A stretch of 6,219 bases of DNA from a plasmid. Made by a program: the position numbers. This document shows positions 1-2,345 of the stretch, in pieces; within the stretch, counting starts at the first letter, position 1; every line of letters starts with the position of its first letter. The DNA is taken from the sequence record NZ_MK533136.1; one strand, given 5' to 3'.

Positions 1-2345
1 AATTCTTCATCAGAATAACGCACCGTTATTTTGATATTTCGCTTTTTTTGCATAGTAAAAAAATTCCTCCTTTTAGGGGGCTAGGGGGTAAAAAGGGGTT
101 AAGGGGAATCCCCTTACAAGGTCATATAGTAAGGCTCGTTAGAGCCGTCTATATGTGTCCTTGCCCTTACTAATTATTGTATCAAAAATTTATTGGTTTT
201 CCCTGAAATAAAAGAAAAAAAGAAGCAAAAAAAGAAAAGCGTATAACCTATGGATTTGTGGACAATCGGCTAAAGCCGACCGTTCTTTAAAGGCTATGCA
301 CAACCCTGATGGATAAATTGATGGACAGCAAGCTGCCCACAATTTAACGCACAGGGATTGCACACAGCCACAGAACTTTGCCCACAAGCTCCACAGGTTT
401 AAACAACAATCATCAGATATAAATCGAAGGGGATTTTCATAAGAAAAACCCCTATTATCTGATATGGTATAGTCGTACTTGACCACATGAACGGAAAAAG
501 GTATTATTTTCAGATAAGAAAAAGCCCCGAATGATTGCAGTCATTCAGGGCTGATATTTACCTAAACCATTTGAAAAGCAGGTAAACAAATTATGAGGAC
601 ATTATATCAATTAGACCTCTTTACATCAAGCATAGCCCACTATTTAGCGTGTTCTGACGACTTGGGCAACGTGGTTAGGCTACCCAAAGAAAAAGCCATT
701 ACAAAGCCGTATATCGCACCAAATAACAGTTCTTTCATCAACTGCTTGCTGTTTGACATTGATAAACCAGACGCAGGGGCTTCATGGCTGGATAACAACA
801 TCGCCATGCCCAACTGGATTTGTCAAAACCCGTTAAATGGTCATGCGCACTATGGTTACATGCTTAAAACGCCTGTTTCTCGCACGTTAAAAGCCAGAGG
901 AACGCCACAACGCTACCTTGCCCGTATTCAGCAAGCCATGACAGAACAGCTAGAAGCTGATGCAGGTTACGCCCATTTCCTCACTAAAACGCCCGCACAC
1001 GACAAACACCGCACAATATGGGGTAGAAGTGAACCCTTTACCCTAGACGAGCTTAGGGACGGTTTAGACGCTGATTTACCGCTTAGATTGAAAAGAGAAA
1101 CAGCAGTAGGCGAAGGCAGAAACGTAACCTTATTTGACGGCTTAAGATTTTGGGCTTATCGGGAAAGATTGAAATACAACGACTTTGATAGGTGGTTTAC
1201 AGCCTGTTTAAGCCACGCACAAGCCCTTAATCAGTTTAGTTGCCCTCTAGGGTACAACGAGCTTAAAAGTACCGCTAAAAGCGTCGCTAAATGGACGTGG
1301 CAAAACATTAATGCAAACGGTTTATCTAAAGCTCAAACAAACAGAATAAGAAAAAGATGGGCAAAAAATAATGCTGAATTAATTGATATTCAGGGAGATT
1401 TAATAAGATGAGAACTGTTAAAAAAATAGCCAGAGAGCGCAATATGACGGCTAAAGAAGCAGCTAAAAAATTTGGTAAATCCACCCGAACAATCCAACGC
1501 CTTGTTGCTCTTGACCGTAGCGATTACGAACGCCGAGCAGATGAACGCCGTAAAATGGCTTATAACCTACGATTACAAGGCAAAAAATGGAAAGAAGTAG
1601 GCGAAGCCTTAGGTTGTTCTGATGAAGCAGCTAGAGCCCTTTATAAGCGTTATCTCGCCTTACAAGAAAAAAAACAAAAAGAAGCAGAAGAAGCCAAAAA
1701 CGAAACAGCAAACTATGATTTATTCATGGATTAACCGTTAAACAGGTCAAGTAGGTCTTGTACCATATCAGATAATAGGGGATAATAGGGGTTAAACTGT
1801 ACTGACTCAGACTTGATCCCACATGCACTGTCTGATCAAGTCACAACTGAGCCTGTAACAGCCGCTTCCGCCACAACCAGTCATTTCACATAACCACAGT
1901 TATACGAAACGAGAGTGTTAGAACCCATTTAAAGTGTCTATATTCTCACCAATAAAAATGTCCGGTTTCTCCGAGGTAAAATATGACTTTTGAACAAAAA
2001 TAAGCCATTGTTTATTCTTTTTATTTCCAACAAAATTCCAGAACTCATCTACTTCGAGAGATTCATAATGACTTTGCTGAGGCTGAATTTCATAGGTTGA
2101 TTCAGTTAAAGTACGTAAAACTTTATCGATACTGATGCGCTCAACTTCAGCAATATCTCGTATACCGCTGCCTCTGACCATCAACTGTAATATTTTACGA
2201 GTAATACCTGACTTACATCCTAGATAGCTCAGTGCATGATCACCAATAAACTGACGTTTACAGTCTTTGCACTGATAGTTTTGTTTCCCATTTACTTTGA
2301 TACCATTTTGCTTTATACTATCACTGAGGCAGGTTGGACATTTGA

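What the first reader, a model, noticed from the sequence alone, without database searches (positions are those of the whole stretch)
412..1800. The rep gene is bracketed by two inverted copies of the origin core, one sitting on the rep promoter
A 21-bp sequence at 1761-1781 (taccatatcagataatagggg) carries the ColE2-ori hallmark TATCAGATAA and lies in the canonical ori position just downstream of rep. It is also present as a perfect inverted copy at 449-469, 10 bp upstream of the rep -35. A degenerate direct copy at 412-433 pairs with that copy to form a roughly 58-bp imperfect palindrome. ColE2-type plasmids are normally described with a single ori downstream of rep and purely antisense-RNA control. 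A Rep-binding site on the promoter suggests either protein autoregulation or a second, oppositely oriented priming site.
Basis: partly seen in the sequence, partly recalled or inferred. Interest (0 to 1): 0.7.

Follow-up and report, generated by a model that had tools for sequence, protein, structure and literature searches.

The report
Extra inverted replication origin beside rep
The promoter-side origin copy is the normal origin of this plasmid's family. The copy after the rep operon is a lineage-specific extra that sits at the edge of acquired resistance DNA, so the repeat is real but only moderately unusual.

Summary
TACCATATCAGATAATAGGGG occurs at 1761-1781 (+) and 449-469 (-), perfectly, and weaker similarity extends to about 37-47 bp. 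The window is the complete 6,219-bp Proteus mirabilis plasmid of the p10797-OXA-58 type.

This replicon is not a one-protein ColE2 replicon. It has a short primase Rep (272 aa) and a translationally coupled RepB-like, sigma-region-4-like HTH protein, as in pAL5000.

In a survey of about 95 related loci:
- Every locus with a short Rep where a motif was found has the ColE2-like core upstream of rep, inverted, 11-12 nt before the -35. Most of these also show the HTH gene.
- Most long single-protein Reps have it just downstream, in direct orientation.

So the promoter copy is the clade's standard origin/promoter module. Only this lineage also has a downstream copy.

The downstream copy begins immediately after the HTH stop codon, at the edge of a 2.8-kb cargo insertion. 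It lacks the -10 and the hairpin/T-run. It matches other plasmids' modules (33/34) better than the resident one. It is most likely a remnant of recombination with a related replicon. Whether it still fires or only titrates initiator is untested. Interest is moderate.

The parts
593..1411 (+). rep (repA-like): archaeo-eukaryotic-type primase domain plus PriCT-1, 272 aa
   Evidence: Pfam Replicase PF03090 E = 8.9e-32 and PriCT_1 E = 1.4e-5. It is 100% identical to a P. mirabilis replication protein. Residues 176-260 match the ColE2 Rep DNA-binding domain, PDB 3VW4. It aligns to residues 2-266 of a 328-aa ColE2-type Rep and lacks that protein's last ~60 aa. The N-terminus is conserved in 30 relatives.
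1408..1734 (+). RepB-like HTH gene (sigma-70 region-4-like), start overlapping the rep stop (ATGA)
   Evidence: Pfam HTH_23 E = 4.9e-9 and Sigma70_r4_2 E = 1.9e-7. TIGR02937, weak. 57% identity over 61 aa to the ORF after repA in Rhodococcus pREC01, E = 6e-17. tblastn hits are annotated 'sigma factor-like HTH' in Rhodococcus and enterobacterial small plasmids. Conserved to its C-terminus in relatives.
449..484 (-). Upstream origin/promoter module: core 449-469 (ATCAGATAA on the minus strand), spacer, and ACTTGACC box whose TTGACC (479-484) is the rep -35
   Evidence: The same module is found at the same place and orientation in every short-Rep relative where a motif was found.
429..452 (.). 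Hairpin GGGGATTTT/AAAACCCC at the outer edge of the upstream core, with a T-rich tail on the minus strand.
   Evidence: Hairpins with different stem sequences occur at the same place in relatives (AGCCCT/AGGGCT, AGCCCC/GGGGCT, AGGTCAT/ATGACCT). ColE2-type origins have a hairpin plus T-run 3' of the core.
479..507 (+). rep promoter: TTGACC, 17-nt spacer, TATTAT
   Evidence: 10 of 12 matches. The -35 and a TAnnnT -10 at a 17-nt spacing recur in most close relatives.
514..629 (-). Predicted antisense RNA against the rep leader and start codon: promoter TTGATG-17-TATAAT (629-601), terminator hairpin 552-523 plus T-run
   Evidence: The RNA folds into two stem-loops, -28.9 kcal/mol, z = -5.6. The terminator stem with its A-run is conserved in relatives. 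It resembles ColE2 antisense control as described in PMC5304414.
1735..1791 (+). Downstream extra origin module: GGTCAAGTAGG box 1745-1755, core 1761-1781, 10-bp tandem duplication GATAATAGGG twice at 1771-1790. It has no -10 and no hairpin/T-run.
   Evidence: It matches the upstream modules of L014, L015 and L157 at 33/34. It is also present in pCCK647 and in L030-L033, and in no other relative.
1735..4546 (.). Cargo insertion between the HTH stop and the mobA stop. It contains the downstream ori module, 46-nt imperfect inverted repeats (1790-1835 and 4501-4546), the ISAba3-blaOXA-58 module between dif-like sites (1883-1910 and 3631-3658), and aadA14.
   Evidence: pair I2. In relatives the HTH gene abuts the relaxase gene (L012, L014-L018), or a restriction-modification cargo sits at the same place (L006-L008).

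Best explanation
Replicon type. The window is a whole small mobilisable plasmid. Its replicon belongs to the two-protein branch of the ColE2/pAL5000 primase-initiator superfamily. It has a short RepA-like primase with a PriCT domain and a translationally coupled RepB-like HTH protein.

Upstream copy (449-469). In this branch the ColE2-like origin core (CCATATCAGATAATAG, which contains the AGA primer sequence) lies upstream of rep and points away from it. It is fused to the rep promoter in the order core, 11-12 nt, TTGACC, 17 nt, -10. An antisense-RNA-controlled leader follows. The 449-469 copy is therefore the family's normal origin/promoter module.

Inferred function of the upstream copy. Initiator bound there primes leftward leading-strand synthesis. 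Because the module overlaps the -35, binding probably also represses rep transcription.

Downstream copy (1761-1781). This is a second complete origin module (core, spacer and GGTCAAGTAGG box). It is cut off before the -10 and lacks the flanking hairpin and T-run. It starts right after the HTH stop codon, at the boundary of a 2.8-kb cargo insertion.

Inferred origin of the downstream copy. It is a remnant of recombination with a related replicon that came in with, or next to, the aadA14 cargo. It is not a designed second operator.

Inferred activity of the downstream copy. Its 21-bp core is identical to the resident one, so it should still bind the initiator. It could act as a Rep-titrating site or as an occasional rightward-firing origin. 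Which of these applies is unknown.
For: Replicon type:
- Pfam domains.
- Rep lacks the last ~60 aa of ColE2-type Reps.
- The HTH protein is 57% identical to the Rhodococcus pREC01 RepB-like ORF. Related ORFs are annotated as sigma factor-like HTH.
- The HTH start overlaps the rep stop as ATGA (read from the sequence).

Placement rule (about 95 loci):
- 46 loci outside this lineage have a short Rep (270-287 aa) and a motif. All 46 carry it upstream and inverted, with the rep-proximal copy 57-178 nt (mostly 118-178) before the rep start as the script placed it. L012 is included here; its contig breaks between core and rep. None has a downstream copy. Most also have a detectable HTH gene.
- Two further short-Rep loci begin at or inside rep, so their upstream region is not held.
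- 32 long Reps (297-329 aa) without an HTH partner have the motif in direct orientation downstream. In 28 it overlaps the rep 3' end or lies within 25 nt after the stop. In four it lies 416-1796 nt downstream.
- Only the window and its near-identical variants L030-L033 have both an upstream and a downstream copy.

Control elements:
- The promoter and the antisense RNA elements are predicted in the window. The promoter recurs in most close relatives and the terminator stem in nearly all.

Downstream module:
- It matches L014, L015 and L157 at 33/34, against 89% with a gap to the resident copy.
- Homology stops at the HTH stop codon, and the HTH C-terminus is intact.
- In relatives the HTH gene abuts the relaxase gene, or a different cargo sits at that spot.
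- Whole-module duplications do occur in the family, but as tandem direct copies (L004, L027, L159; L025 and L026 among ColE2 types).
- pCCK647 carries the rep 3' fragment, the HTH gene, the downstream module and aadA14 as passenger DNA on a Pasteurellaceae backbone.
Against: - No origin in this Gram-negative RepA/RepB clade was found to have been mapped experimentally. Calling the upstream motif the origin rests on conservation, on similarity to the ColE2 core, and on pAL5000, whose origin and RepB-binding sites I recall being upstream. The primary papers were not readable here.
- The donor of the downstream module was not found, and no flanking cargo sequence matches any relative. 'Recombination remnant' is therefore an inference from position and similarity.
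- The downstream module is kept in every variant of this backbone seen (window, L030-L033) and has a perfectly intact core. That is also what selection for function would give. These variants are about 99-100% identical, so the test is weak.
- The ACTTGACC box could be conserved only because it is the -35. Its proposed role as a RepB site is not separable from that here.
Confidence: 0.6

Rival explanations
1. The downstream copy is the true, canonical ColE2-type origin. The upstream copy is an added Rep operator or second priming site peculiar to this plasmid.
For: ColE2-type plasmids with a single long Rep do mostly have the origin just after rep in direct orientation. The downstream copy has that orientation.
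Against: This Rep belongs to the short-Rep plus HTH branch. In that branch every relative with a motif has it upstream and inverted, and none has it downstream. The downstream copy lies beyond the HTH gene at a cargo joint. It lacks the hairpin and T-run that follow ColE2-type cores.
Confidence: 0.08
2. Both copies are functional and selected. They are two divergently oriented unidirectional origins bracketing the initiator operon. This would give two-way replication, or higher initiation frequency and copy number for the resistance cargo.
For: The 21-bp cores are identical. Both modules keep the conserved box at family-typical spacing. The pair is retained in backbone variants carrying different cargo (L030). 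Tandem origin duplications are tolerated elsewhere in the superfamily.
Against: The arrangement is found in one lineage only. All carriers are about 99-100% identical, so retention says little. The downstream copy lacks the flanking hairpin and T-run and carries a 10-bp slippage duplication. If both unidirectional origins fired at once, the 1.3-kb rep arc between them would have no fork entering it. That point is an inference from the ColE2 mechanism.
Confidence: 0.22
3. The downstream copy is a non-firing initiator sink or looping partner. It would lower copy number, or tighten rep repression by bridging to the promoter copy.
For: In ColE2 the origin itself is an incompatibility determinant, as stated in PMC5304414. 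The downstream core is identical to the resident one, so it should compete for initiator.
Against: No direct evidence. No relative uses such an arrangement.
Confidence: 0.1

Closest known systems
pAL5000-type RepA/RepB replicons (Mycobacterium pAL5000; Rhodococcus pREC01, which I take to be pRE2895)
   Same: A short primase-type RepA is followed by a coupled small sigma-like HTH RepB. Both proteins are required in pAL5000 and RepB binds DNA (PMC7157519). A core-like motif (GATACCTGATATGG) lies upstream of repA in pREC01, inverted, 118 nt before the start.
   Different: Gram-negative host. The core is much closer to ColE2 (ATCAGATAA). An antisense RNA is predicted over the leader. There is an additional inverted downstream module. 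The equation of pREC01 with pRE2895, and the RepB high- and low-affinity sites and autoregulation in pAL5000, are recalled from memory and were not checked here.
ColE2-P9 / ColE3 class C theta replicons
   Same: Rep has the primase and PriCT domains. The origin core carries TATCAGATAA with the AGA primer sequence. A hairpin follows the core. An antisense RNA acts on the rep leader.
   Different: ColE2 Rep is a single protein of about 300-330 aa with its own C-terminal extension. Its origin lies within about 25 nt after rep, or overlapping its 3' end, in direct orientation. Here Rep is 272 aa with a separate HTH partner, and the conserved origin is upstream and inverted.
Small enterobacterial and Stenotrophomonas plasmids with rep plus a 'sigma factor-like HTH' gene (pVCM04 / Col(VCM04), Shigella sonnei 3.3-kb plasmids, pSM76, pBl2-2)
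   Same: Same gene pair and the same upstream inverted core next to the promoter. pVCM04 has three tandem upstream copies.
   Different: Rep identity is only 42-52%. None has a copy downstream of the HTH gene.
ColE2-type plasmids with duplicated origins (Moraxella pEMCJH03, Acinetobacter pHZE23-1-10)
   Same: More than one origin core per replicon.
   Different: Their copies are tandem and direct, both just after rep. They are not inverted and do not bracket rep.

Membership tests
ColE2-type (class C theta) replicon, strict sense | Initiator with an archaeo-eukaryotic primase domain (Replicase) and PriCT-1 | tested here: met
   PF03090 E = 8.9e-32 and PF08708 E = 1.4e-5. Match to the 3VW4 ColE2 Rep DNA-binding domain, E = 2e-7.
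ColE2-type (class C theta) replicon, strict sense | Single Rep of about 300-330 aa carrying its own C-terminal extension; no second replication protein | tested here: not met
   Rep is 272 aa. It aligns to residues 2-266 of a 328-aa ColE2-type Rep and lacks the rest. A coupled HTH gene follows. The HTH protein shows no similarity to that C-terminal region.
ColE2-type (class C theta) replicon, strict sense | Origin core with the conserved ATCAGATA(A) block that includes the AGA primer sequence | tested here: met
   Present at 455-463 (-) and 1767-1775 (+). The same block is found in the ColE2-type loci examined. Actual priming was not tested.
ColE2-type (class C theta) replicon, strict sense | Single origin immediately downstream of rep, in direct orientation | tested here: not met
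   The clade-conserved copy is upstream and inverted. The direct-orientation copy lies 350 nt past the rep stop, beyond the HTH gene, and is specific to this lineage.
ColE2-type (class C theta) replicon, strict sense | Antisense RNA complementary to the rep mRNA leader | tested here: met
   Sequence level only. Minus-strand promoter at 629-601 and terminator at 552-523. The RNA has two stem-loops, z = -5.6. The terminator stem is conserved in relatives. There are no expression data.
ColE2-type (class C theta) replicon, strict sense | Rep synthesises a ppApGpA primer; replication depends on DNA polymerase I and is unidirectional | not testable with these tools
   Biochemical property.
pAL5000-type RepA/RepB replicon | repA (primase type) followed by a coupled repB encoding a small sigma-factor-like HTH DNA-binding protein | tested here: met
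   ATGA overlap at 1408-1411. Sigma70_r4_2 E = 1.9e-7. 57% identity to the Rhodococcus pREC01 ORF after repA. tblastn hits in Rhodococcus plasmids.
pAL5000-type RepA/RepB replicon | Origin located upstream of repA | tested here: met
   By conserved motif only. The core lies upstream and inverted in all 46 short-Rep loci outside this lineage where a motif was found, including Rhodococcus pREC01. Origin function was not shown.
pAL5000-type RepA/RepB replicon | RepB binds the origin and the promoter region | not testable with these tools
   Needs EMSA or footprinting. Only the overlap of the module with the -35 is seen.

The most novel reading that the evidence does not exclude
The plasmid runs two active, divergently oriented ColE2-type unidirectional origins that bracket its own initiator operon. 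The RepB-like sigma-region-4 HTH protein recognises the -35-like ACTTGACC box in both modules. Origin firing and rep autorepression would then be mechanically coupled, and the two sites might communicate by looping across the 1.3-kb operon.
Probability: 0.15. Interest if true: 0.6.

Novelty: new variant of a known kind. Interest (0 to 1): 0.38.

Why it matters
This is the replicon of a small mobilisable plasmid that carries the OXA-58 carbapenemase in Proteus. A piece of it has also reached Pasteurella. Its replication region had only been described as a replicase with about 51% identity to a Stenotrophomonas protein (PMC7280188).

The comparison gives a practical rule for annotating a large group of small plasmids:
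- Short Rep (most with a detectable HTH partner): look for the origin upstream of rep, inverted, on the promoter.
- Long single Rep: in most cases look just downstream of rep.

It also identifies one natural plasmid with two inverted origin modules. That plasmid is a convenient test case for three questions:
- Can a ColE2-like origin work in either position?
- Does initiator binding at the promoter autoregulate rep?
- How do extra origin copies affect copy number and incompatibility?

If the downstream copy is only a recombination scar, it still marks how cargo was acquired between related replicons.

Tried and rejected
- The search for related loci on genome contigs with the single Rep protein: 81 pattern hits, none a relative.
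- Exact 15-mer TATTATCTGATATGG on genome contigs: 120 loci, essentially all chance matches. Only one partial Rep hit was found by tblastn. This scan was a poor use of the cap.
- Rfam on the window and pCCK647 at E <= 0.1: no family matched, so the predicted antisense RNA belongs to no curated family.
- PDB sequence search with the HTH protein: nothing significant.
- BLASTP of the HTH protein against the C-terminal part of a ColE2-type Rep: no similarity. The idea that the HTH gene is simply the split-off ColE2 C-terminus is not supported at sequence level.
- Primary papers on ColE2 origin anatomy, the ColE2 Rep-origin structure, and pAL5000 regulation and RepB were not held. Statements about them are from memory or from secondary citations.
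- Searched for the donor of the downstream module and for homology of its outer flank (1792-1925), or of the right inverted-repeat arm, in all fetched loci. Only the module itself matches. The closest relative with cargo at the same site (L007) has no comparable inverted repeats.
- A promoter reading leftward from the downstream TTGACC box: rejected. No acceptable -10 follows it (ATGAAT), and the scan finds no promoter there.
- The 1-nt shorter spacer in the resident upstream copy as a sign of decay: rejected. The spacer varies between 11 and 12 nt within the family.
- The 21-bp repeats as ends of a mobile or invertible rep cassette: rejected, because the same module is a single-copy feature of every relative.
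Full report
**What the window is**

The 6,219 bases are a complete circular plasmid, because the mobC reading frame runs across the end and start of the window. Genes:

| Gene | Coordinates | Strand |
|---|---|---|
| rep | 593-1411 | + |
| small HTH gene | 1408-1734 | + |
| ISAba3 fragment - blaOXA-58 - IS fragment module | about 1900-3640 | mixed |
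| aadA14 | 3660-4445 | + |
| mobA | 4547-5968 | - |
| mobC | from 5958 | - |

The Rep is 100% identical to a Proteus mirabilis replication protein. Size and content match the 6,219-bp plasmid p10797-OXA-58 (KU871396) / p20130297-OXA-58. That plasmid's replicase was only reported as about 51% identical to a Stenotrophomonas protein (PMC7280188). The backbone is not from Acinetobacter; only the OXA-58 module is.

**The observation**

- TACCATATCAGATAATAGGGG is at 1761-1781 (+) and 449-469 (-). Both copies are perfect, and no match appeared in 200 shuffles.
- Similarity continues toward rep in both copies: GGTCAAGTA, 6-7 nt, then TACCATATCAGATAATAGGGG. Each copy is thus a module of about 37-47 bp that includes an ACTTGACC box.
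- In the upstream copy that box supplies the -35 of a strong promoter: TTGACC 479-484, 17-nt spacer, TATTAT 502-507.
- On the other strand there is a promoter at 629-601 and a terminator at 552-523. They define an antisense RNA of about 80 nt with two stem-loops over the rep leader and start codon. This resembles ColE2 control as described in PMC5304414.
- The palindrome at 412-463 is real (z = -3.85). Its inner part is a hairpin at 429-452. Hairpins at the same position, with different stem sequences, occur in about half the relatives. The outer ATCAGATA arm is not conserved in them.

**Which family the replicon belongs to**

- Rep has the Replicase and PriCT-1 domains and matches the ColE2 Rep DNA-binding domain structure 3VW4.
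- It is only 272 aa. It aligns to residues 2-266 of a 328-aa ColE2-type Rep and lacks the rest.
- The next gene starts on the rep stop codon (ATGA). It encodes a 108-aa protein with sigma-70 region-4-like HTH motifs.
- That protein is 57% identical over 61 residues to the ORF following repA in Rhodococcus erythropolis pREC01. Similar ORFs in Rhodococcus and in small enterobacterial plasmids are annotated 'sigma factor-like HTH DNA-binding protein'.
- This is the RepA/RepB layout of pAL5000, where both proteins are needed and RepB is the DNA-binding protein (PMC7157519).
- From memory only: the pAL5000 origin and its RepB sites lie upstream of repA and overlap its regulatory region. The primary papers could not be read here.

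**Where relatives keep the origin core**

I fetched the following:
- Plasmid records with Rep at 42-52% identity.
- 24 metagenome contigs for Reps at 51-80% identity.
- Four contigs of the same backbone.
- 68 further metagenome loci found with a Rep alignment.
- ColE2-type and actinobacterial comparators.

A motif scan, [AT][AT]ATC[AC]G[AG]TA on both strands, was placed relative to the rep ORF. It gave a clean split.

| Rep type | Where the core lies | Exceptions or notes |
|---|---|---|
| Short Rep (270-287 aa), most with a detectable HTH gene; 46 loci with a motif outside this lineage, covering roughly 20-25 distinct plasmid types | Upstream of rep, inverted. The rep-proximal copy lies 57-178 nt (mostly 118-178) before the rep start as the script placed it. 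L012 is counted here; its contig breaks between core and rep. | No downstream copy in any of them. L004, L027 and L159 have 2-3 tandem upstream modules. Two other short-Rep loci (L160, L163) begin at or inside rep, so their upstream region is not held. |
| Long Rep (297-329 aa), no HTH partner; 32 loci with a direct downstream motif | Direct orientation. In 28 it overlaps the rep 3' end or lies within 25 nt after the stop. In four (pMUT2, L212, L215, L217) it lies 416-1796 nt downstream. | L025, L026, L191 and L209 have two direct copies. L203, L205 and L206 have it inverted and downstream. L197 and L223 have it direct and upstream. |
| Window lineage (window, L030-L033) | Both an upstream inverted and a downstream direct copy | The only case found |

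Aligned on the core, most close relatives share one architecture. In order it reads: A-run, optional hairpin, CTATTATCTGAT(A/T)(T/A)GG, 11-12 nt, (C)CTACTTGACC, 17 nt, TAnnnT, then the antisense-RNA terminator. The more distant comparators carry a core-like motif at the same place: Rhodococcus pREC01 (GATACCTGATATGG) and Klebsiella p5.

The promoter-side copy is therefore the clade's standard origin/promoter module. A site 'on the promoter' is the rule here.

**What the downstream copy is**

- It contains the core, a family-typical spacer and the GGTCAAGTAGG box.
- Homology to the module ends before the -10. ATGAAT stands where the -10 would be, and no promoter is predicted there.
- It lacks the hairpin/T-run, and it carries a 10-bp tandem duplication.
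- It begins directly after the HTH stop codon, and the HTH C-terminus is intact and conserved.
- In relatives the HTH gene abuts or overlaps the relaxase gene (L012, L014-L018). In the closest relative a restriction-modification cargo occupies that spot instead (L006-L008).
- All of 1735-4546 is therefore inserted cargo, and the extra module is at its left edge.
- Positions 1745-1778 match the upstream modules of L014, L015 and L157 (Rep 68-69% identical) at 33/34. The match to the plasmid's own upstream copy is 89% with a gap.
- The core is nearly invariant among close relatives. L009-L011 share 24 identical bases with the resident copy. The perfect 21-bp identity therefore does not require a recent internal duplication.
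- The same rep 3' fragment, HTH gene, module and aadA14 occur as passenger DNA in P. multocida pCCK647. Its own non-coding origin region is the common Pasteurellaceae type.
- A variant backbone with different cargo (L030) keeps both copies.

**Mechanism**

Shown at sequence level: the module architecture, its conservation, the promoter and antisense elements, and the position of the extra copy at the cargo joint.

Inferred:
- AGA occurs only on the ATCAGATAA strand. ColE2-like priming would therefore send the leading strand toward the GC-rich stub. That is leftward from 449-469 and rightward from 1761-1781, so both forks would move away from rep.
- Initiator or RepB binding at the upstream module would overlap the -35 and could repress rep.
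- The downstream module should still bind initiator. It might fire occasionally or act as a sink.
- If both unidirectional origins fired at once, no fork would enter the 1.3-kb rep arc. This argues against the pair being a designed two-origin system.

**Comparison with known systems, and verdict**

- The replicon works like ColE2 in its core, primase and antisense RNA. It fails two ColE2 defining features: a single long Rep, and an origin just downstream of rep.
- It fits the pAL5000-type RepA/RepB layout in its gene pair and upstream origin.
- The bracketing arrangement was not found in any other lineage. I found no description of it in the papers I could search.
- It is a new variant of a known kind and of moderate interest.

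Noticed in passing
window 1883-1910 and 3631-3658; L030 around 4510-4540; L001 around 1334-1354: Two 28-bp dif-like (XerC/D-type) sites flank the ISAba3-blaOXA-58 module: ATTTCACATAA-CCACAG-TTATACGAAAC and ATTTAACATAA-TGGCTG-ATATTATTAAT. L030 and pCCK647 have the hybrid 'empty' site ATTTCACATAA-CCACAG-ATATTATTAAT. This fits insertion by Xer recombination, as proposed in PMC7280188.
   Followed up: partly
window 1790-1835 and 4501-4546: Imperfect 46-nt inverted repeats (76%) bracket the aadA14/OXA-58 cargo. They start right after the downstream ori module and end at the mobA stop. Both contain GTTAAAC (an integron core-site-like heptamer) and internal small palindromes. Their nature is unknown. 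Nothing comparable was found in relatives.
   Followed up: partly
window 240-400: A non-coding stretch with repeated CCACA(A/G) motifs and a DnaA-box-like TGTGGACAA. Positions 305-355 are 90% identical to small Pasteurella plasmids. Positions 244-385 are about 73% identical to unannotated DNA in 35-166-kb (mostly ~40-kb) Klebsiella, Enterobacter and Citrobacter plasmids. A TTGCCCACAA motif recurs upstream of the origin in several relatives. Function unknown; possibly related to oriT, a single-strand initiation site or multimer resolution.
   Followed up: no
L197, L203, L205, L206, L223: Other placements of the origin core exist among long-Rep relatives. L203, L205 and L206 have inverted copies about 56-58 nt downstream of rep. 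L197 has three direct copies upstream. L223 has a direct copy 67 nt upstream. Position and orientation are therefore evolutionarily plastic in the superfamily.
   Followed up: no
L001 (pCCK647) 1334-2041 and 2042-3190: pCCK647 carries only the last ~70 codons of this rep, plus the HTH gene, the downstream ori module and aadA14. Its 2042-3190 region is the gene-free origin region shared by many Pasteurellaceae small plasmids. The resistance segment therefore moved from a plasmid like this window into a Pasteurella backbone.
   Followed up: partly
L030 (GCA_054225665.1 contig, 6,988 bp): The same backbone (99.7-99.9% identity), but with a different aadA variant (81% identity) and a class A beta-lactamase in place of the OXA-58 module. 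Cargo is being swapped at this site.
   Followed up: partly
window 3620-3639: AAGCCCCTATTATTTAACAT, next to the right dif-like site, shares CCCCTATTAT with the origin core (family D4, 80%). This is probably chance.
   Followed up: no
L025 (pEMCJH03) 1151-1260; L026 (pHZE23-1-10) just after rep: Two tandem direct copies of the ColE2-type origin core directly after rep in a Moraxella and an Acinetobacter plasmid. The second Acinetobacter copy, and the first Moraxella copy, is followed by a hairpin and T-run.
   Followed up: no
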